Positions 1,144 to 54,918 of a stretch of 64,000 nt of DNA are shown one piece after another. Position numbers and translations under genes: made by a program. The notes beneath the pieces were generated by a model that was not told the origin of the DNA, did not search any database, and saw only the letters and a list, made by a program, of their open reading frames with translations. The first letter of the stretch is position 1. The number at the start of each line of letters is the position of its first letter. The stretch comes from Shigella phage Sf25, in the sequence record MF327009; one strand, 5' to 3'.

Positions 1144-1590
1144 TTATAGATTAAATCCTTCAAAATCAAGAGTATAGATAGTATATGTTGAATACTTTTT
1201 GTACTCATATCTATCTGCAATTCTAAATACACTTCCAGCTGGTATCATTACTTCTTGTTCATCTGAAACTAATTCCATATTACGATAACGATGACTATCC
1301 GGAAACTTAAAGTTTGGATTGTATTCTTTACAGCGTAGAGCTTTTATAGCATACTCCTGGAAATTGAATACCATAGGAGCTTTGAATTCAAAAATAACTT
1401 GTGTGTTATACTCTAAAATTTCATTTAACCAAGTATGGTCATCTGGTTTATTAGTAATACAATGAATTAAAAGTTCAATTTCAGATAAATTAAACCCTTC
1501 AGAAAGTAATTCTTCACGAATAGAAGCACGCACCGATGCATCCATTGATTTTATTTTAAAATCTTTTAGTTGCATTACTGAGTATTTCAT
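1144..1590 (-). CDS. Mod-family ADP-ribosyltransferase-like protein, possibly N-terminally shortened
   Basis: 148 aa; carries E-Q-E-V (ExE) motif matching the EQEW motif of the upstream paralogue but lacks an obvious upstream Arg/STS region; start overlaps upstream stop (ATGA). Confidence 0.4.
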   Translation of the reverse strand: MKYSVMQLKDFKIKSMDASVRASIREELLSEGFNLSEIELLIHCITNKPDDHTWLNEILEYNTQVIFEFKAPMVFNFQEYAIKALRCKEYNPNFKFPDSHRYRNMELVSDEQEVMIPAGSVFRIADRYEYKKYSTYTIYTLDFEGFNL

Positions 1591-2210
1591 TCAACTACCT
1601 CAATATCATAAACTTTAAATGTTCCAAATGAATCGTGTAATTTTTCTTTTGAAATAGAAGTTATTCTATACTTTCCAATTGGAATCATCCATTCTTGTTC
1701 ACGCACAATCATCATTAAGTTATCAGTACGCTCTGAATCTAGCCCATCAGTATCTTCATACGTGTACTTAAACTCAGTATTAGGAGAAGAAAGTATAATA
1801 TCGCTGATATGGTCAGAATAATTAAAAGCTTTATCAGTTTTTAAGCGAAATATTATTTCAGTGAAATACTCAACATAAGAAAAACCACATGCTGTGTGCA
1901 AACTAGTAGTAAATGAATCTACCCTATTCGTTGAAAACACTTCTCCAACTTGTAAATCTTTAATGAGTTCTTTTGTCGATTTTGATATACCACGATATAA
2001 CTGATAAGGTGATTTAGTTAAATGCTTTTTAACGATTTTATTCAACTGCCGATGAAGAGCTTCATTCTTTTTAGCTTCCATACATTGCCAAAGAACAGAC
2101 TGCTCAAAGTCAGTAAATTTTTCACAGACTTTTTTATACATATCATATTGAAAATCGACACTTTCAGCTTTTATAGATAACTGTTCAACATCTGCAAGAT
2201 TAATAATCAT
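1587..2210 (-). CDS. modB: ADP-ribosyltransferase, ModB-like
   Basis: 207 aa; Arg at position 73 (LYRGIS), S-T-N region, ExE (REQEW) - the R/S/ExE triad of T4 Mod/Alt enzymes; length matches T4 ModB. Confidence 0.5.
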   Translation of the reverse strand: MIINLADVEQLSIKAESVDFQYDMYKKVCEKFTDFEQSVLWQCMEAKKNEALHRQLNKIVKKHLTKSPYQLYRGISKSTKELIKDLQVGEVFSTNRVDSFTTSLHTACGFSYVEYFTEIIFRLKTDKAFNYSDHISDIILSSPNTEFKYTYEDTDGLDSERTDNLMMIVREQEWMIPIGKYRITSISKEKLHDSFGTFKVYDIEVVE

Positions 2211-47127: not shown

Positions 47128-47417
47128 TCAGTCTCCAATTTAATGTTCATAATTCTAGCGTATGATTGTGCCATCTCCGCGCCTCGCTCTATACATTCAA
47201 AATCGGAAGAGCACGGGTCATTTTTATAAGTCGTTCGCATAAAACTATAGAACTGTTCAGATGATTCTACGCTTTTATTTTCAAAAAGCATATAAACGTG
47301 TCTAATACCAGATTCCATAAATTTATCAAAATGAGGATCGACATTCGCTTCAATCGGTGGAGATAAAGCAAACGCTAATCCTAGCATGGCAAATAGTGCC
47401 GTTGCTTTTAAGGCCAT
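47124..47417 (-). CDS. rI: lysis-inhibition regulator RI (periplasmic antiholin)
   Basis: 97 aa, signal-anchor N-terminus MALKATALFAMLGLAFALSPPIEA; matches T4 RI as recalled. Confidence 0.75.
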   Translation of the reverse strand: MALKATALFAMLGLAFALSPPIEANVDPHFDKFMESGIRHVYMLFENKSVESSEQFYSFMRTTYKNDPCSSDFECIERGAEMAQSYARIMNIKLETE

Positions 47418-47429
47418 AAAGGCCTCCTA

Positions 47430-47642
47430 TCATTTTTGTCCTGTATTTACTTTATGCCGATGCACGGCCTTAACTTTATCAAGGTATTTTTCAAAATTTC
47501 GCAATCTAGTATAGTCTGCCGGAGATTGGTTGAGTGATACTTCTCGACGCAAAGCTGAAATGATATTTCCAACTTCCCTACGAATTTCATCTAATTGAAG
47601 AACAGTAAGATTGCGAAGTTGCTTTTCAGTTAATTGTAGCAT
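47430..47642 (-). CDS. hypothetical protein (70 aa)
   Basis: Minus-strand ORF between tk and rI. Confidence 0.4.
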
Positions 47643-47684
47643 ATATACCCCTTTAGTTAGATAAACCTATTTATAACTTTTGCA

Positions 47685-48266
47685 CTAACCGAGCTTTTTA
47701 GTTAATTCATTCCAATGTTTTCTGCACAAAGAAACATAAATTTCATCACCAATACAGATTTGATTACCTTCTTTAACTGGTGTTCCATCTTCCATTAATC
47801 GAGCTGTCATAATAGCTTTTTTACCACAATGACAAACTGCTTTTAGTTCAATAAGTTTATCTGCAATCGCCAAAAGTTCTTTAGAACCTTCAAATAATTT
47901 TCCAGCGAAATCAGTCCTTAGTCCATAAGCCATAACAGGAACATTATATGTATCAACAATTCGGCTTAATTGATGCACCTGTTCAGTTTTTAAAAACTGA
48001 GCTTCATCTACAAATACACAATGAATATCTTTTTGTGCTTCAGCCCATTTATAGAACTCAAAAATATCCATATCATCCGTAATAATATTCGCTTCCTGCT
48101 TAATTCCAATGCGAGAAACGACTTCACAGACAGAATCGCGAGTATCAATAGCAGGTTTAAGAACTAATACACCCATTCCGCGTTCTTTATAATTATGCGC
48201 AGCAGTCAAAAGAGAAGCAGATTTTCCAGCATTCATTGCTGCATAAGTAAAAATTAAACTCGCCAT
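47685..48266 (-). CDS. tk: thymidine kinase
   Basis: 193 aa; P-loop AMNAGKS and C-terminal zinc-binding Cys pairs. Confidence 0.85.
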   Translation of the reverse strand: MASLIFTYAAMNAGKSASLLTAAHNYKERGMGVLVLKPAIDTRDSVCEVVSRIGIKQEANIITDDMDIFEFYKWAEAQKDIHCVFVDEAQFLKTEQVHQLSRIVDTYNVPVMAYGLRTDFAGKLFEGSKELLAIADKLIELKAVCHCGKKAIMTARLMEDGTPVKEGNQICIGDEIYVSLCRKHWNELTKKLG

Positions 48267-48275
48267 ATCACCTTC

Positions 48276-48461
48276 TTAAAGCGTATTCACATAAGCTATT
48301 AATTCGTTTTCTTTCTTATCAAACCGGTCAGCAAATTCTTCTTGCTGTTCGGGAGATAGCGGGCCGTATTCATCATAAAAGGTGTTTGCTTCTGTATGCT
48401 CATCTAGAAGTTCATGGATAAGCTCAAACAATTTATCTTTTTGTTCTTTGCTTAGGCTCAC
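48276..48461 (-). CDS. hypothetical acidic protein (61 aa)
   Basis: Minus-strand ORF. Confidence 0.35.
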   Translation of the reverse strand: MSLSKEQKDKLFELIHELLDEHTEANTFYDEYGPLSPEQQEEFADRFDKKENELIAYVNTL

Positions 48462-48630
48462 AGTATGTCAATCCCCAAAAGTTTTAAAATGACTCGTTTC
48501 TGATTCATAACCGCTACGATTGAATGACCGTTGGGGTCTTTTTGACCTGATCCAATTATAAATCCTTTTTGCGCAGAAAGTTTAATCAAAACATCAAGTT
48601 CACGTAATAATTGATATTTTAAATCATCAT

Positions 48631-48858
48631 TCATTTTGGTTTACCTTCTTTAACGAAATCAGGATAAGGATAAAATCCTGAATAAAATCCTTCACCTTTA
48701 TGATTGATGCATCCTTTATTAGAACAATAGCACCAATAATCGAAATCACAAGCCATTTCATCGTTGCATAAAGCAAAAACAACCGGCCACTTACACTTTT
48801 CACAGTGGGCATTTTTAAGAATACTAGTTTGGCTCATAACCATGTAACCTTTAAGCAA
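48631..48858 (-). CDS. Cys-rich small protein (75 aa)
   Basis: Nine or more Cys residues (CEKC...CNDEMACDFDYWCYCSNKGC). Confidence 0.4.
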   Translation of the reverse strand: MLKGYMVMSQTSILKNAHCEKCKWPVVFALCNDEMACDFDYWCYCSNKGCINHKGEGFYSGFYPYPDFVKEGKPK

Positions 48859-49046
48859 TATTCTTCTACATGTTGTTTACGACCTTTCTTATCAATAAAG
48901 GTATATTCAACGAATGTTCCAATGTAGTCTTTATCTACATCATGTGGACTATTAATTGGACATTTAGTACGGCAAATGCGTTCCCATTGACGAATAATTA
49001 CTGCTTTGTTTTTAGGATCAAACGGATGTGGGTAATGCACTTTCAT
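48834..49046 (-). CDS. hypothetical protein (70 aa)
   Basis: Minus-strand ORF. Confidence 0.35.
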   Translation of the reverse strand: MKVHYPHPFDPKNKAVIIRQWERICRTKCPINSPHDVDKDYIGTFVEYTFIDKKGRKQHVEEYCLKVTWL

Positions 49047-49497
49047 AATCCACCGCTATTAAATCAATATCAGGAGTAAACATGTCGATTAATTTAGAAA
49101 CCTTATCCCAATCGCCGCCAGCAATACCACAACCTATGCGTGGAATGTAAATTACCGGTTTAAACAAAAGGGTTTCTGCCTGTAGATTTAATTCTATCAT
49201 GCAGTTTACTAAAGCACCATAATCAAGATTAGGACCTGGTTCGTATTGCGTATACAGGTTATAGCATATACCAAATCCCGTAGGACTATGTTTAAAAACA
49301 ATAGACATATCGCCTAATTTATCGCGAGAACCGTACTCAGTAGTGGTTTTATCTATTTCTAAAATTTTGGGATAGGCTCTGGCTAATTGACCCGCTACAC
49401 CTGAACCCATAGTATGAAAACAATTGCACCCGTGCGCAATAATATTACCTTGAAGAAATAGGGCGACAATATCGCCCTTGATATATTTTACAATCAT
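49018..49497 (-). CDS. macro-domain-like protein (putative ADP-ribose binding or hydrolase)
   Basis: GDIVALFLQGNIIAHGCNCFHTMGSGVAGQL and IPRIGCGIAGG resemble the macro-domain GDI...GGGV and P-x-I-S-T-G-I-Y-G motifs. Confidence 0.45.
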   Translation of the reverse strand: MIVKYIKGDIVALFLQGNIIAHGCNCFHTMGSGVAGQLARAYPKILEIDKTTTEYGSRDKLGDMSIVFKHSPTGFGICYNLYTQYEPGPNLDYGALVNCMIELNLQAETLLFKPVIYIPRIGCGIAGGDWDKVSKLIDMFTPDIDLIAVDYESALPTSV

Positions 49498-49835
49498 CTA
49501 GTACTCAATCCTCGATTATAAGAATCTACCAAACGGTCAACCATTGAATGACAAGCGGCTTTATCTTTTTCCTCCGCAACTGAACATTCTAAGGTATTCC
49601 ACTTTTTAGCATATCGTTTTAACAATGTATCATTTTTGTATCTGCTTGATTTATCTCTTTCTCCGTCTTTATATGCATATATTAATTTCTGTGCAAATTC
49701 AGCTTGGCATGCTTTATTTTTCCCGCAATAATCCGCTGCAGTACGGTTTACATACTCTCTAATTTCAGTATATGATGTATCTGCTAACGCAGAAAATGAA
49801 ATTAATCCTATACATAAAACCAAAATTTTAGTCAT
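49494..49835 (-). CDS. secreted protein (113 aa)
   Basis: Signal peptide MTKILVLCIGLISFSALADT; four Cys. Confidence 0.45.
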   Translation of the reverse strand: MTKILVLCIGLISFSALADTSYTEIREYVNRTAADYCGKNKACQAEFAQKLIYAYKDGERDKSSRYKNDTLLKRYAKKWNTLECSVAEEKDKAACHSMVDRLVDSYNRGLSTR

Positions 49836-50373
49836 TTACTATTTCCAAAAGTTTATTATTTTTAAGGTAATTAGCCTTTTCTAGGACTTCAGAAGCATAT
49901 TTAGAACCAGCTTTAACATTCCATCCCGAATTATAAGAGGATATTGCTTTTCTTATATCGCCCTTATGTATATTTAACCAATAAGAAAGTTCAATGTACG
50001 CCCAGGAAGCTGAATTGGACCGTTTATTCAACATTCTTTTTATTTCAGCATCGGTCATATTATAACCAAGTTCCTTAACTCTTGCTCGCATAGTAGGCAA
50101 ATAATTTTGGAACATTCCATAAGCGTGATGCTTTGGTTTAGATTTTAAATTAACTCCGCCAGAGCTTTCTTGCCATAAAATAGCAGCCATTATATGACCT
50201 AATCCGCTCTTGTGGATATTTTTGTGTGTTTTATATTTTCCATCCTTAGAAAATTGTTCCCCGAATTGATACGCGTAACGCATGTTATCGAGTTGGACAT
50301 TACTGAAAGTATGCTCGGAGCTATGTGCCATCATTGAAATGGCCAATAGACCAGCGAGTAGTGCTTTTCTCAT
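49828..50373 (-). CDS. secreted lytic-transglycosylase-like (SLT-domain) protein
   Basis: Signal peptide; WQESSGG (Glu-Ser catalytic motif), GMFQ and SYNSGW resemble SLT motifs. Confidence 0.45.
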   Translation of the reverse strand: MRKALLAGLLAISMMAHSSEHTFSNVQLDNMRYAYQFGEQFSKDGKYKTHKNIHKSGLGHIMAAILWQESSGGVNLKSKPKHHAYGMFQNYLPTMRARVKELGYNMTDAEIKRMLNKRSNSASWAYIELSYWLNIHKGDIRKAISSYNSGWNVKAGSKYASEVLEKANYLKNNKLLEIVND

Positions 50374-50380
50374 GCTTACC

Positions 50381-50842
50381 TCATTGAGTTTTAATTACTG
50401 CTTTAGAAGCCTTTCCTGGTAAACGACGACTGTTGATAATTGCCATCCTGCATTGAAGTGACGGGTTTTTAAACTTCTCATTAGGCTTACAAACTGTAAA
50501 TCCAAGCCAAAGATTTCCATCTGTGATTTCTAAACGTCCAGGACGATATTCAACCCCATCAATAAAATCCTCGTCAATGTCAGGACGCGGAGGCATACTC
50601 AGGAATTCATTAACTTCTAAAACATGGTCTTTTATTTTATGGAATAATTCAAAAACATATGTCTCATCAATCTCCCGTTGAATTGCACGATCAAGAAGAT
50701 GCTGAGAATATTTTAGATGAAACGATGAGACCCCTGCTGCTTTTGATGCCTCACGAATCTCATTGTTAATTTGACGAAACTCCGACTCAAAATGACGACG
50801 AAGCTTATTTCGACGGATAAAAACTTCTGTATTGATAGTCAT
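50381..50842 (-). CDS. regB: site-specific endoribonuclease RegB
   Basis: 153 aa, same length as T4 RegB, own early promoter upstream, position between tk and e. Confidence 0.65.
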   Translation of the reverse strand: MTINTEVFIRRNKLRRHFESEFRQINNEIREASKAAGVSSFHLKYSQHLLDRAIQREIDETYVFELFHKIKDHVLEVNEFLSMPPRPDIDEDFIDGVEYRPGRLEITDGNLWLGFTVCKPNEKFKNPSLQCRMAIINSRRLPGKASKAVIKTQ

Positions 50843-50867
50843 GTTATTCTCCTCTTAACTGATAGAA

Positions 50868-50900
50868 AAATTATACCACAGTCAAGAGGAAAAGTAAACA
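50868..50900 (-). promoter_or_regulatory. T4-type early promoter upstream of regB
   Basis: gtaaac at 50894-50899 on plus strand. Confidence 0.45.
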
Positions 50901-50901
50901 G

Positions 50902-51222
50902 TTATTCTTTAAATCTAATCAATTTATTCATAGACTTTGAAACTTCTGCACGAACCTCATGCAAGTTTTTAAGCTGTTCAAGACGCTGTTCATAGTAAGC
51001 AATTTCATCTTCTTCGAGACAGTCCTGTGAATCTTCTTTAAGATAATGTGCATAGTCCTGAAAAGCTTTACGGACTACTTCCTGGAAGTCATCAAGACTT
51101 TGAATTTTCTTAGGAGCGGCAGATACACGACGAGGTGCAGTATAATACTCATAACCAAACCCTGCACTTAATTGAGCCATTAGTATTTTTCCTCTGGTTG
51201 GAACACTGCACGACAAGCCCAC
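50902..51222 (-). CDS. hypothetical protein (106 aa)
   Basis: Minus-strand ORF. Confidence 0.4.
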
Positions 51223-51482
51223 ATACTGGCTTCTTTGAGTTTCGTTTTAGCAATAGTTAACTGATCGAGGCTTTCAGCATAATTCTTCGCGAGTTCATCG
51301 TCTTCACAGCTATCAAATGCTTCCCAAAATTCATCGTATAAAGCATCAAAGATAAGTCCTAAACGAACTTCAGCGTCTTTAATAGCATTTACTTTACCGA
51401 TTTTTTCGTCGGTATGTGGCTTATAACCTTTAATATCTTCAATCATATTTGACTTCCTCGCCAGTACATAAATCGTATTCAA
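51180..51482 (-). CDS. hypothetical protein (100 aa)
   Basis: Minus-strand ORF. Confidence 0.4.
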
Positions 51483-51660
51483 CTAAACGAATAGGTTCAT
51501 GAATGCCATATCCTTGAACAGAAATTTCTGTCGTAGGATAAATTCCATCAATATCACCCATATTCCAGGCTTCATTAAATTGCTGTTCGCCTGAATTACT
51601 AAACCACTCGGCGAAAGCATTTAGCACATCTTTAGAACCTTCAATAATTATCTTTGCCAT
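51439..51660 (-). CDS. hypothetical protein (73 aa)
   Basis: Minus-strand ORF. Confidence 0.35.
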   Translation of the reverse strand: MAKIIIEGSKDVLNAFAEWFSNSGEQQFNEAWNMGDIDGIYPTTEISVQGYGIHEPIRLVEYDLCTGEEVKYD

Positions 51661-52022
51661 TACAAACTCTCAGTAAAGGTACGAGCGATAACGTCGCGCT
51701 GCTGTTCCGGAGTCAGAGAGTTAAAGCGAACTGCATAACCAGATACACGGATGGTCAGCTGCGGATATTTTTCCGGATGCTTAACTGCATCTTCCAGAGT
51801 TTCACGACGCAGAACGTTAACGTTCAGGTGTTGACCACCTTCAATTTTAACTGTAGGTTGTGTTTCAATTTCAATTTCACGGGCATGCAAACCATAGAAA
51901 ATTTCTGGGTCTACAAAGGAGTCTTCTTTAAAAGTTTTAGAGACAATAATTCGTGCTTGAATACCATCTTCAAAATAAATAGTACCTTTGTGTGTGCCTT
52001 CAAGAATTTGATATGCTTTCAT
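51660..52022 (-). CDS. autonomous glycyl-radical cofactor (GrcA/YfiD-like)
   Basis: 120 aa; C-terminal half [56 protein letters not shown] carries the RVSGY glycyl-radical motif and closely resembles E. coli GrcA. Confidence 0.8.
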
Positions 52023-52029
52023 ATAAACC

Positions 52030-52410
52030 TCAATTAGAAAATAAATTTATCCAAGATTGTTCTTTAATTAAAAACGGCTCAGAATCATATGCCATTAAAC
52101 TCTGTGTGATTAGTCCTTTAAAAGGCCCATCAATAAATTCCATGGTAAAATATGGAATTTTATTCATTAATCTTGCATTAGGAGCAGTGCACAAAACTCT
52201 GCATCCTTCGAATACGCCTTTTTGTAATTTGTATTGCTTAGGATAAAATTCGCTCAAGACGTTGTTATTTGCCAAAATTTCAAAATGATTCACCAATTTA
52301 TTTTTAATAGTTTTTGGCGAAAAATAAAGATATTCGAAAAGTTGCGTGTCTGTCATCATTGCATTCCGATTATGAAAAACTGTGGACGAGTAATACCACC
52401 AATGCAACAT
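52030..52410 (-). CDS. hypothetical protein (126 aa)
   Basis: Minus-strand ORF. Confidence 0.4.
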
Positions 52411-52895
52411 TTACTATTGCAGCAGTGTTGCACAGTTTCAATATGAATATCGTAAATTTTATCCATATCAGGAGATTTAACAGGCTCATCGATTATATAC
52501 AAAATCCGTGAAAGCGATAAACCTCTGAACTTGCTTCCTTTATTACCGATAAAACTACGGACAGAATCGGTAAATAAACGGAATCGAATATCATCGCTAG
52601 AATAACGAGAAAATTCTTTTTTAATGTGGCCTGCAGAAATTTTAGCGTAAGCTGAAGTATTAGAAAGAACAATAACTGTTCCACCATCATACAGCCAATT
52701 AGCAGCAAAGTTAGTCACAGCAGTTGATTTACCGGATTGTCTGCCACCATCTAATCGAAGTGTGCAATACTGCTTGAGTAAGTCTTCAAATGGTGGGATA
52801 TAATCGTTTTTACAAATTTCTTCTACTCTAGCATCAGAATGGTGTGTAAAAGCATTCATCAGGGATAGATAAGGACCAGTTAAAAATGTTCTCAT
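52356..52895 (-). CDS. P-loop-containing protein (179 aa)
   Basis: Walker-A-like GGRQSGKST. Confidence 0.4.
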   Translation of the reverse strand: MRTFLTGPYLSLMNAFTHHSDARVEEICKNDYIPPFEDLLKQYCTLRLDGGRQSGKSTAVTNFAANWLYDGGTVIVLSNTSAYAKISAGHIKKEFSRYSSDDIRFRLFTDSVRSFIGNKGSKFRGLSLSRILYIIDEPVKSPDMDKIYDIHIETVQHCCNSKCCIGGITRPQFFIIGMQ

Positions 52896-53035
52896 TTCTT
52901 CTCTCTAAGTTTGGGCCATTCCATGGCGCATGAATTGTCCATTTCTGTATTTACCCATTACCGCACTTGGGCTCGACCTTATTACAGGTTGGCGGGAATC
53001 CCTCATAGAATCATGAGGTCCAGTTTGTTCCCATA

Positions 53036-53509
53036 TTATTTGAACGATTTAACGTACTGAATAGAACCTTTACTATTTACAAAGGCAATTTTACCATTTT
53101 TATTATACATTGTAGCAGTACGTTGATAGCCATAAGTTTGTTTACCAGATTGATAACCAACTAATGCAAAATTATCTTCACCCATTTTATTCTGTTTAGC
53201 GCGAATGCGTTCATGACCATGTGCCATAAGAACCTTAGCATCACCAGTTGCAATGGATCGACGAGTTTTTTCATCTTCAACTGTATTAACAAAGTCGTCA
53301 AATGAATCAAATTTAGCATGAGATTTATTATACAATTTTCCATCTACTGCATAATTATATCCCTGTACATCCATCTCAACTTCTGTACCATCATCCAATA
53401 CAGCAGTAATTTTCTGTCCTTTTTTAAATTTCAAAAGATCAGTAAAAGATTCAGCAATAATTTGAGAATTAATAGCTGCTTCAGTGATAAATTCTTGATA
53501 TGTTTTCAT
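53036..53509 (-). CDS. internal protein (IPII/IPIII family) with capsid-targeting leader
   Basis: N-terminus MKTYQEFITEAA (leader cleaved by the prohead protease in T4 IPs); position next to e. Confidence 0.6.
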   Translation of the reverse strand: MKTYQEFITEAAINSQIIAESFTDLLKFKKGQKITAVLDDGTEVEMDVQGYNYAVDGKLYNKSHAKFDSFDDFVNTVEDEKTRRSIATGDAKVLMAHGHERIRAKQNKMGEDNFALVGYQSGKQTYGYQRTATMYNKNGKIAFVNSKGSIQYVKSFK

Positions 53510-53525
53510 GTGTATCCTTTAATTT

Positions 53526-53843
53526 TTATTCTTTAGGGAAGTTTTTAGAATATGCATCATAAAGCTTATTTCCAATACGGCGGAAAACTCTAGCCGCAAA
53601 ACGATTTTCTGGGTTTTTAATCATGATTTGCATCATATAAGTACCCGCGTCAGAAAGAGCTTCTTCATAGTACCCGTTAATTTCTTTAAGAGTCCTACGT
53701 TTACCGCCAGGACCATCAACAGTGATTTTCCATTTACCTGTAGAAGTGCGACTTGGCGGCTCAACTTGTTCAATCCAGATATAACCGCCTTCTACACGTT
53801 GTCCTGCAGCAGATTCTGCAATAAATTCTTGATAGGTTTTCAT
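53526..53843 (-). CDS. internal protein (IPII/IPIII family) with capsid-targeting leader
   Basis: N-terminus MKTYQEFIAESAA; basic. Confidence 0.6.
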   Translation of the reverse strand: MKTYQEFIAESAAGQRVEGGYIWIEQVEPPSRTSTGKWKITVDGPGGKRRTLKEINGYYEEALSDAGTYMMQIMIKNPENRFAARVFRRIGNKLYDAYSKNFPKE

Positions 53844-54462: not shown

Positions 54463-54918
54463 TTAAAAGAGGCTGTTCATTATTCGGTAAAGTGAAGGAC
54501 CCATCACATATTGCCACTGAGTACGAGGAATAAGAGCAAAAGCATCCATCTCTGGAATCATAACGCCATCTTTATTTTCAAAATAAGACTCACAACGGCA
54601 ATTTCTGAACATCTCATGCTCTACTGGAATCGTATAATAAAATAACTGTAAGTCTTTATTACTAGAATATTTAAATACACCTAGGTCTTCTAGAAGGTCT
54701 GGATTATAATTGTTAAAACCAGTCTCTTCTGAGCATTCTCTTCGTGCTGCATCTAATGCGCTTAAATCAGAATTTTCTACACGCCCCTTTGGAATATCCC
54801 AGCGATGTGCCATCATTCCAGGCTTACGAGAACCAGTAACTCGTCCCATAAATAAATCTTTATCTTCTGTCATAAAGATAATACCAGCTGATAATGTTTT
54901 CATTTTAATTTCCTGCAT
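54463..54918 (-). CDS. nudE: Nudix hydrolase NudE
   Basis: 151 aa; Nudix box GRVENSDLSALDAARRECSEETG. Confidence 0.8.
   Translation of the reverse strand: MQEIKMKTLSAGIIFMTEDKDLFMGRVTGSRKPGMMAHRWDIPKGRVENSDLSALDAARRECSEETGFNNYNPDLLEDLGVFKYSSNKDLQLFYYTIPVEHEMFRNCRCESYFENKDGVMIPEMDAFALIPRTQWQYVMGPSLYRIMNSLF

What the first reader, a model, noticed from the sequence alone, without database searches (positions are those of the whole stretch)
49018..49497. Macro-domain-like protein in a phage that also encodes ADP-ribosyltransferases
The motifs resemble the ADP-ribose-binding macro fold (GDI...G-x-G-V and P-x-I-G-x-G-I-x-G). A phage macro domain could remove ADP-ribose marks and so counter ADP-ribosylating host defences, or regulate the phage's own Mod-type enzymes. 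The assignment rests on motif reading only.
Basis: partly seen in the sequence, partly recalled or inferred. Interest (0 to 1): 0.45.

Follow-up and report, generated by a model that had tools for sequence, protein, structure and literature searches.

The report
Phage T4 tk.4/adfM macrodomain gene
This is a real macro-domain (ADP-ribose-removing) gene, the counterpart of phage T4 gene tk.4, which was recently shown to protect T4 from a bacterial defence that ADP-ribosylates phage DNA, so the finding is correct but already known.

Summary

The window is a Tequatrovirus (T4-like phage). The ORF sits between vs and tk.3, where T4 has tk.4. A 2025 preprint renamed T4 tk.4 adfM: deleting it makes T4 sensitive to DarTG2, a defence that ADP-ribosylates thymidines in DNA. 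The most likely function is therefore removal of ADP-ribose from phage DNA.

Two details go beyond the annotation:
- This allele is only 58% identical to T4 Tk.4, although the flanking genes are 96-100% identical. That pattern indicates a swapped allele cassette.
- The whole family has an invariant Gln84 where DarG and TARG1 have their catalytic lysine. The same arrangement is found in SCO6735, a stand-alone Streptomyces enzyme that cleaves thymidine-linked ADP-ribose. The His22, Asn25 and Gly124 counterparts of its other active-site residues are also present.

Bacterial homologues have no DarT neighbour. ModB is intact in the window; ModA carries a 52-residue deletion.

The parts
49018..49497 (-). 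tk.4/adfM coding sequence: a 159-aa single-domain macrodomain protein
49393..49434 (-). Residues H22-A35 (HGCNCFHTMGSGVA): first ADP-ribose-binding loop. Contains invariant H22 and N25 and the G-x-G motif.
   Evidence: H22, G23, N25, C26, G33 and A35 are invariant in 89 homologues. N25 aligns with the DarG 'TVN' Asn and with PhiKZ AdfM N23, whose N23A mutant has reduced activity (PMC13309987). SCO6735 His24 and Asn27 are the counterparts (PMC9411070).
49246..49260 (-). Residues N80-L-Y-T-Q84: invariant Gln84 at the position of the catalytic lysine of TARG1 (K84) and DarG (K80)
   Evidence: N80, Y82 and Q84 are invariant. MAFFT aligns NLYTQ with TARG1 YLITK, DarG NFPTK and PhiKZ MFPTK. The HMM profile aligns NlYtQ with TARG1 YLITK and BT1257 NMIGQ. 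SCO6735 Gln85 is stated to be the equivalent of K84/K80, and Q85A is inactive (PMC9411070).
49114..49143 (-). Residues P119-G128 (PRIGCGIAGG): second, phosphate-binding loop
   Evidence: P119, G122 and G124 are invariant. Matches 'PRIGCGLAGG' in BT1257 and SCO6735. SCO6735 G128E reduces activity.
49494..49835 (-). vs (valyl-tRNA synthetase modifier). This is the upstream gene; its stop codon overlaps the tk.4 start (ATGA), so the two are probably translationally coupled.
   Evidence: ORF. 97.4% identity to T4 Vs. Overlap read from the sequence.
48834..49046 (-). tk.3 (DUF7202). This is the downstream gene; its first 29 nt overlap the end of tk.4. It marks the right-hand boundary of the divergent allele cassette.
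   Evidence: Pfam DUF7202 E=8e-39. 95.7% identity to T4 Tk.3. DNA identity to T4 resumes at the tk.3 start.
1587..2210 (-). modB, an intact ADP-ribosyltransferase (context for the finding's title)
   Evidence: PHROG 832 'RNA polymerase ADP-ribosylase' E=7e-42. 96% identical to T4 ModB.
1144..1590 (-). modA with an in-frame 52-residue internal deletion (148 aa against 200 aa in T4)
   Evidence: BLASTP against T4 ModA: 142 identities with one 52-residue gap. PHROG 832 E=2e-14, C-terminal part only.
54463..54918 (-). nudE (e.1), a Nudix hydrolase and a possible consumer of the free ADP-ribose released by the macrodomain
   Evidence: The ORF lies next to the lysozyme gene e and carries a Nudix box, GRVENSDLSALDAARRECSEETGF. 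ADP-ribose is a reported substrate of T4 NudE (PMC9503650). The functional link to tk.4 is inference only.

Best explanation
The ORF is this phage's allele of T4 tk.4 (adfM). It is a stand-alone macrodomain of the ALC1-like class, which includes TARG1, DarG, SCO6735, BT1257 and Poa1p. It is probably co-transcribed with regB-vs.1-vs and translationally coupled to vs.

Its most likely job is to hydrolyse the ADP-ribose that the host DarT2 toxin (DarTG2 defence) attaches to thymidines in single-stranded phage DNA, so that replication can continue. The free ADP-ribose could then be broken down, for example by NudE.

The active site is not of the DarG/TARG1 lysine type. An invariant Gln84, held by Asn25 and accompanied by His22 and Gly124, matches the Streptomyces enzyme SCO6735. 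That enzyme cleaves thymidine-linked ADP-ribose through a water-activated mechanism that depends on the glutamine.

Shown here: the ORF, the fold, the class, the residue pattern, the position in the genome and the allele divergence. Shown by others for T4 only: protection against DarTG2. Inferred: the enzyme activity, the substrate and the function of this 58%-identical allele.
For: Fold and class:
- Pfam Macro above its cut-off. AF2 pLDDT 94.
- Foldseek: TARG1 E=3e-10, then Poa1p, BT1257 and DarG.

Orthology:
- Same slot as T4 tk.4, between vs and tk.3.
- 58% identity over the full length, E=4e-70.

Function of the T4 gene:
- tk.4 was the only significant hit in the transposon screen on a DarTG2 host.
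- The deletion mutant is sensitive to DarTG2 (bioRxiv 10.1101/2025.11.20.689424).

Chemistry:
- H22, N25, Q84 and G124 are invariant across 89 homologues, including both Tequatrovirus alleles.
- Q84 aligns with TARG1 K84 and DarG K80 in two independent alignments.
- SCO6735 has Gln85, Asn27, His24 and Gly128 at these positions. It removes DarT-made dT-ADPr from DNA, Q85A abolishes activity, and the enzyme protects against DarT toxicity (PMC9411070).
- SCO6735 and its close relative BT1257 are among the best sequence matches.

Precedent: PhiKZ AdfM, an unrelated phage macrodomain, removes DarT2 marks from DNA in vitro (PMC13309987).
Against: - No biochemical activity has been reported for any Tk.4-family protein. 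The preprint itself says only that enzymatic removal 'seems likely'.
- The genetic evidence is from a preprint, for the T4 allele, under particular conditions (M9 glucose medium, 30 C).
- This allele differs from T4's at 42% of positions.
- The catalytic lysine that defines DarG is absent.
- The lysines SCO6735 uses for DNA binding (K34, K89) have no obvious counterpart. By spacing, the matching positions are S32 and G88; this was not checked on a structural alignment.
- Bacterial members of the family are not linked to DarT, so the family's ancestral role may be something else.
- Database annotation calls it a 'phosphatase' (Poa1p-like).
Confidence: 0.7

Rival explanations
1. It processes small ADP-ribose metabolites. 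It would act as an ADP-ribose-1''-phosphate phosphatase or an O-acetyl-ADP-ribose deacetylase, as yeast Poa1p does. This is the basis of the 'phosphatase' annotation.
For: - T4 Tk.4 is annotated 'contains A1pp phosphatase motif', and PHROG 335 is named 'phosphatase'.
- Iyer et al. argue that phage macro and NADAR domains may prefer soluble ADP-ribose derivatives (PMC9503650).
- Bacterial homologues stand alone and have no toxin partner.
Against: - The only phenotype known for the T4 gene is specific to DarTG2.
- The Poa1p match is confined to the N-terminal half.
- By my reading of the alignment, Poa1p F152, a residue chosen for mutation in PDB 6lfu, corresponds to Ala126 here.
- The Gln/Asn/His/Gly pattern matches the DNA-active enzyme SCO6735.
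- By established knowledge of T4, no phage pathway that produces Appr-1''-p is known.
Confidence: 0.12
2. It erases the phage's own ADP-ribosylation, or RNAylation, marks made by Alt, ModA or ModB. That would reset or tune host takeover.
For: ModB is intact and a ModA remnant is present in the same window. A transferase and a hydrolase in the same genome is a common regulatory pairing.
Against: - Tk.4-family macrodomains occur in 2774 phage records, including Pseudomonas, Vibrio, Aeromonas, Acinetobacter and Campylobacter phages. ModB-like proteins occur in 1010 records, essentially all phages of enterobacteria.
- Alt and Mod enzymes modify arginine, and ALC1-class macrodomains are not known to cleave arginine-linked ADP-ribose (established knowledge). 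The arginine-specific MavL-type macrodomain was described as a separate type (title of PMC10951314).
- tk.4 was reported as a screen hit only in the presence of DarTG2.
- ModA is deleted internally here while the macrodomain is intact.
Confidence: 0.06
3. It mainly acts without catalysis. It would bind and block DarT2, or sequester an ADP-ribose-containing signal, rather than hydrolyse DNA adducts.
For: Catalytically dead SCO6735 Q85A still inhibits DarT by direct interaction, more strongly than DarG or TARG1 do (PMC9411070). Other phage anti-DarT factors, such as AdfB, act by binding (PMC10760071).
Against: All positions important for SCO6735 catalysis are invariant across a family spanning many phage and bacterial lineages. 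That conservation argues for selection on chemistry rather than on one binding partner. The protein also lacks the C-terminal DarT-binding domain of DarG (159 aa, single domain).
Confidence: 0.07

Closest known systems
Phage T4 Tk.4 = AdfM (anti-DarT factor, macrodomain; bioRxiv 10.1101/2025.11.20.689424)
   Same: Same genomic slot between vs and tk.3, similar length (159 against 155 aa) and the same fold family. All 14 residues invariant across the 89-sequence family alignment are also identical in the direct comparison with T4 Tk.4. 58% identity over the full length.
   Different: 42% of residues differ although the flanking genes are 96-100% identical, so this is a distinct allele class. 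Its 3' end overlaps tk.3 by 29 nt instead of 4. Protection against DarTG2 has been shown only for the T4 allele.
Streptomyces coelicolor SCO6735 (PDB 5e3b) and Bacteroides BT1257 (PDB 2afc/2fg1): stand-alone Gln-type ALC1-like macrodomains
   Different: Only about 26-28% identity. The SCO6735 lysines implicated in DNA binding (K34, K89) are not evident here. SCO6735 is a cellular, DNA-damage-regulated enzyme, not a phage counter-defence gene.
DarG2 antitoxin macrodomain (T. aquaticus 5m31, M. tuberculosis 5m3i)
   Different: Gln84 replaces the catalytic Lys80. There is no C-terminal DarT-binding domain and no adjacent darT. Sequence similarity is weak (E=7.8e-5 and 1.3 for the single sequence).
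PhiKZ gp104 'AdfM' (Cell Rep 2026, PMC13309987)
   Same: A phage-encoded stand-alone macrodomain that counters DarTG2. It carries the same name and the same conserved Asn.
   Different: It belongs to a different lineage. PhiKZ gp104 is truly DarG-like (E=9e-25 to M. tuberculosis DarG, with the FPTK lysine). It is only about 22% identical to the Tk.4 family (hhalign probability 96.4%). Its activity has been shown in vitro, which is not so for Tk.4.
Human TARG1/OARD1 (PDB 4j5r)
   Same: Top Foldseek hit (TM 0.72-0.83). Shares the KGD, MGxG and PRIGCG motifs.
   Different: The TARG1 catalytic pair K84/D125 corresponds to Q84/A126 here.

Membership tests
Macro domain (Pfam PF01661) | Profile score above the curated gathering threshold | tested here: met
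   32 bits against a cut-off of 22, E=1.3e-7, profile positions 2-117 of 118.
Macro domain (Pfam PF01661) | Three-layer alpha/beta/alpha macro fold | tested here: met
Macro domain (Pfam PF01661) | ADP-ribose-binding loops: G-x-G after strand 2 and a glycine-rich phosphate loop | tested here: met
   G31-S-G33-V and P119-R-I-G-C-G-I-A-G-G128. The glycines are invariant in 89 homologues.
ALC1-like macrodomain class (TARG1/DarG/SCO6735/Poa1p) | Closest structural neighbours belong to this class rather than to the MacroD, viral or PARG classes | tested here: met
DarG2 antitoxin | Catalytic lysine (T. aquaticus DarG K80) | tested here: not met
   Gln84 occupies this position and is invariant in the family.
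DarG2 antitoxin | C-terminal DarT-binding domain and an adjacent darT gene | tested here: not met
   The protein is 159 aa with a single domain. Its neighbours are vs and tk.3. None of 125 genes flanking 79 bacterial homologues was among the 25 most frequent Pfam or PADLOC families as a DarT/DUF4433 match.
SCO6735-type (Gln) DNA ADP-ribosylhydrolase | Gln at the K84/K80-equivalent position, with the Asn, His and loop-Gly counterparts | tested here: met
   Q84, N25, H22 and G124 are invariant. The equivalence runs through TARG1 K84 and the paper's statement that Gln85 = K84 = K80. A direct residue alignment to SCO6735 was obtained only for the C-terminal loop.
SCO6735-type (Gln) DNA ADP-ribosylhydrolase | Extended mobile loop with Lys89/Lys94, and Lys34, for DNA binding | tested here: inconclusive
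   By residue spacing the matching positions are S32 and G88 (sequence). No structural superposition on 5e3b was available.
SCO6735-type (Gln) DNA ADP-ribosylhydrolase | Hydrolysis of thymidine-linked ADP-ribose on ssDNA | not testable with these tools
   Needs an enzyme assay.
T4 Tk.4 / AdfM | Orthologous position and full-length homology | tested here: met
   Lies between vs (97.4% identity) and tk.3 (95.7%). 58% identity, E=4e-70, no gaps over 155 residues.
T4 Tk.4 / AdfM | Confers resistance to DarTG2 | not testable with these tools
   Shown only for the T4 allele, by deletion.
Poa1p-type ADP-ribose-1''-phosphate phosphatase | Residues probed in Poa1p (H23, S30, F152, known from the PDB mutant entries) | tested here: inconclusive
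   H23 corresponds to H22 (conserved), S30 to T29 (similar) and F152 to A126 (not conserved). This comes from the alignment, and the significant match covers only the N-terminal half.

The most novel reading that the evidence does not exclude
The Tk.4 family may not descend from DarG antitoxins at all. It could be an independent recruitment by phages of a housekeeping, SCO6735-like, Gln-type DNA de-ADP-ribosylase. The sharply divergent tk.4 alleles (58% identity inside a backbone that is 96-100% identical) could then be specificity variants, exchanged by recombination to match different ADP-ribosylating toxins: DarT2 variants or as yet unknown nucleic-acid ADP-ribosyltransferases.
Probability: 0.25. 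Interest if true: 0.45.

Novelty: already known. Interest (0 to 1): 0.2.

Why it matters
The finding confirms that a motif-only reading picked out a real counter-defence gene. Practically, hundreds of T4-like phage records label this gene 'phosphatase' or 'hypothetical'. The better label is a macrodomain ADP-ribosylhydrolase and probable anti-DarTG2 factor.

Two modest points go beyond the literature read here. The Tk.4 family has a glutamine-type active site like SCO6735, not the lysine type of DarG with which it has been compared. Tequatroviruses also carry at least two or three strongly divergent alleles at this one locus. Both points could guide experiments on which defence variants each allele neutralises. 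That matters when predicting the host range of therapeutic T4-like phages.

Tried and rejected
1. Search for a toxin partner. I fetched 80 bacterial loci encoding family members. A first motif-based neighbour analysis missed 30 loci, so I redid it with tblastn coordinates. I then scanned 125 flanking proteins against Pfam and PADLOC.
   - No DarT/DUF4433 family appeared among the 25 most frequent families shown for each library.
   - The recurrent neighbours were lineage-specific synteny (rpoC, EamA and Exo_endo_phos in the Ruegeria group) plus 3 NADAR proteins.
   - I therefore rejected the idea that the family is a toxin-antitoxin antitoxin in bacteria.

2. Promoter and terminator scan of 47400-53200. 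It found 19 promoter-like sites against 22.6 expected, so it was not informative. Only the site upstream of regB (50898-50870) looks like a strong early promoter.

3. Direct residue alignment to SCO6735 around Gln85. The PDB search printed only the C-terminal loop, and the profile search ranked 5e3b below the five alignments shown. The equivalence rests on TARG1 K84 as a bridge, plus the paper's own statement.

4. ICP1 AdfB as a phage macrodomain precedent. Rejected: it binds DarT and is not a macrodomain.

5. Neutralisation of the CmdT mRNA ADP-ribosyltransferase. Rejected for T4, because CmdTAC still defends strongly against T4.

6. The Pfam scan found no family for ModA or ModB. PHROGs identified them.

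Full report
**Observation**

The quoted motifs are in the translation:
- KGDI at residues 7-10.
- GSGV at residues 31-34.
- PRIGCGIAG at residues 119-127.

The ATG overlaps the stop codon of the upstream gene (ATGA). The last 29 nt of the ORF overlap the start of the downstream gene.

**What the window is**

A 3-kb stretch around the ORF is 99.1% identical to Escherichia phage vB_EcoM_Kelasse and matches 788 phage records, almost all T4-like phages of enterobacteria. Annotated relatives and T4 itself show the local gene order: regB, vs.1, vs, this ORF, tk.3, then on to tk.

The ORF occupies the slot of T4 tk.4. The T4 record annotates that gene as 'phosphatase; contains A1pp phosphatase motif'. 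Other records call it 'macro domain containing protein', 'phosphatase' or 'hypothetical protein'.

**Is it a macrodomain?**

Yes. The evidence:
- Pfam Macro: E=1.3e-7, 32 bits against a cut-off of 22, nearly full profile coverage.
- PHROG 335: E=1.4e-70.
- Single-sequence search of the PDB finds BT1257 (about 1e-9), yeast Poa1p (2.7e-9), SCO6735 (1.5e-7), M. tuberculosis DarG (7.8e-5) and TARG1 (0.017).
- A profile of 89 homologues raises these to 5.6e-19, 1.9e-14, 4.6e-15, 9.3e-12 and 1e-16 respectively.
- AlphaFold2 run with that alignment gives pLDDT 94.1 and pTM 0.89.
- Foldseek against the PDB: TARG1 E=3e-10, TM 0.72-0.83, followed by Poa1p, BT1257 and DarG.

The protein therefore belongs to the ALC1-like class of macrodomains.

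**What is known about the orthologue**

A November 2025 preprint ran a transposon screen of T4 on a host expressing DarTG2. tk.4 was the single significant hit, and a clean deletion sensitised T4 to DarTG2. The authors renamed the gene adfM and proposed, without an enzyme assay, that it removes ADP-ribose from DNA (bioRxiv 10.1101/2025.11.20.689424).

DarT2 ADP-ribosylates thymidines in ssDNA, and macrodomains of the DarG class reverse this (PMC11825919; PMC13309987). A separate 2026 paper showed that PhiKZ gp104, also named AdfM, removes DarT2 marks in vitro and that N23A reduces its activity.

**How this gene differs from T4's**

The protein is only 58% identical to T4 Tk.4 (90 of 155 residues, no gaps). 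Its neighbours are close to identical to T4's: Tk.3 95.7%, Vs 97.4%, Vs.1 100%, RegB 99.3%.

At the DNA level:
- Identity to T4 is 100% through the end of vs and the first ~37 nt of the gene.
- It then falls, by eye, to roughly 85% over the next ~130 nt and to roughly 55-60% over the rest of the gene.
- It returns at the tk.3 start.

This is an allele cassette replaced by recombination. In the phage collection:
- 312 records carry this allele at 90% identity or more.
- 221 records carry the T4 allele at 95% or more.
- 159 records carry a third allele about 80-90% identical to T4's.

**Active site**

Fourteen residues are invariant across 89 family members, which include 58%-identical sequences of the T4 allele type: H22, G23, N25, C26, G33, A35, D49, N80, Y82, Q84, P119, G122, G124 and W130.

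The MAFFT alignment also places it on the lysine of DarG ('FPTK', K80) and of PhiKZ AdfM (K78). N25 falls on DarG N22 and PhiKZ N23.

So the Tk.4 family fails one defining feature of DarG, the lysine. PhiKZ AdfM, by contrast, is a true DarG relative (E=9e-25 to M. tuberculosis DarG) and only distantly related to Tk.4 (hhalign probability 96.4%, 22% identity).

The Gln arrangement has a characterised precedent in Streptomyces SCO6735. That enzyme:
- Has Gln85 at the K84/K80 position, plus Asn27, His24 and Gly128.
- Cleaves thymidine-linked ADP-ribose from DNA faster than DarG or TARG1.
- Is dead as Q85A.
- Protects cells from DarT (PMC9411070).

The most economical reading is that Tk.4-family proteins are SCO6735-like, glutamine-type de-ADP-ribosylases of DNA. 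This is inference. No activity has been measured, and the DNA-binding lysines of SCO6735 have no obvious counterpart here.

**Origin and partners**

The family is widespread in bacteria: at least 562 loci were confirmed, and 80 were fetched. I scanned 125 immediate neighbours of 79 homologues against Pfam and PADLOC. No DarT appeared among the recurrent families shown, and no other conserved toxin partner emerged. The only recurrent neighbours were lineage-specific synteny and three NADAR proteins. The family therefore looks like a stand-alone enzyme, not a captured antitoxin.

ModB is intact in the window (96% identity to T4). ModA has lost 52 internal residues. ModB-like proteins occur in 1010 phage records, essentially all phages of enterobacteria. 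The macrodomain family occurs in 2774 records, including Pseudomonas, Vibrio, Aeromonas, Acinetobacter and Campylobacter phages. So most carriers lack a Mod-type enzyme detectable at E<=1e-5.

Alt and Mod modify arginine (established knowledge), a linkage not known to be cleaved by this macrodomain class. I rate this reading low.

The 'phosphatase' reading (Poa1p-like) rests on similarity limited to the N-terminal half and has no pathway support in T4.

CmdTAC, an mRNA ADP-ribosyltransferase defence, still blocks T4 (PMC11618068). The T4 macrodomain is therefore not a general eraser of nucleic-acid ADP-ribosylation.

**Expression context**

The gene is translationally coupled to vs. It lies downstream of a strong promoter-like site in front of regB (50898-50870, 10 of 12 matches with an extended TG). 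Overall, though, the scan found no more promoter-like sites than chance would give.

**Verdict**

- The gene is a known one, tk.4/adfM, and near-identical copies sit in hundreds of sequenced phages. Novelty is low.
- Two points are worth recording: the Gln-type active site (SCO6735-like rather than DarG-like) and the strongly divergent alleles at a conserved locus.
- Confidence that it is a macrodomain is about 0.99. Confidence that this allele counters DarT2-type DNA ADP-ribosylation by hydrolysis is about 0.7.

Noticed in passing
window 1144-1590 (-): ModA is 148 aa instead of 200. An in-frame 52-residue deletion removes roughly T4 residues 55-110. By my recollection of ART motifs, that stretch holds the Arg and S-x-S parts of the R-S-E ADP-ribosyltransferase motif, so ModA is probably inactive in this phage. 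ModB next to it is intact.
   Followed up: partly
window 53036-53843 (-), and the whole window: T4 denV (endonuclease V) has no tblastn match anywhere in the 64-kb window. At its T4 position, after vs.8, the window has two ORFs that begin MKTYQEF, like T4 internal head proteins.
   Followed up: partly
window 48276-48858 (-): The tk.1-tk.2 segment is also mosaic. tk.1 is absent and tk.2 is only 52% identical to T4. Two unrelated small ORFs (48458-48634 and 48631-48858) lie between tk.2 and tk.3. Together with tk.4 this makes a variable patch in a conserved backbone.
   Followed up: partly
window 49460-49478: A perfect 8-bp stem with a 3-nt loop (AGGGCGATATTGTCGCCCT) lies inside the first 40 nt of tk.4, in the stretch that is 100% identical to T4 and encodes KGDIVAL. 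It may be chance, or a structure that affects the translational coupling with vs.
   Followed up: no
window 54463-54918 (-): NudE (e.1), a Nudix hydrolase, is present. ADP-ribose is one of its reported substrates (PMC9503650), so it could dispose of the ADP-ribose released by the macrodomain.
   Followed up: no
L024 4481-5017, L025 3873-4400, L026 4463-4990 (bacterial loci): Three flanking genes of bacterial Tk.4-family homologues encode a NADAR domain (Pfam count). I assign them to these three ~176-179-aa upstream ORFs; only L026's sequence was read, and a NADAR-like motif was seen in it. NADAR is the other DNA de-ADP-ribosylase family (T4 AdfN/30.3). Two neighbours match Pfam Phage_30_3, so the two eraser types are sometimes adjacent.
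   Followed up: partly
L009, L011 (labelled as bacterial MAGs): Some 'bacterial' loci look like phage contigs. L009 has a Vs.1-like SLT transglycosylase two genes downstream of the macrodomain. L011 has a neighbouring ORF that I read, by eye and without a family search, as ribose-phosphate pyrophosphokinase-like.
   Followed up: no
Literature: Two unrelated phage macrodomain lineages have both been named AdfM: T4 Tk.4 (Gln-type) and PhiKZ gp104 (Lys-type, DarG-like). The shared name could cause annotation confusion.
   Followed up: yes
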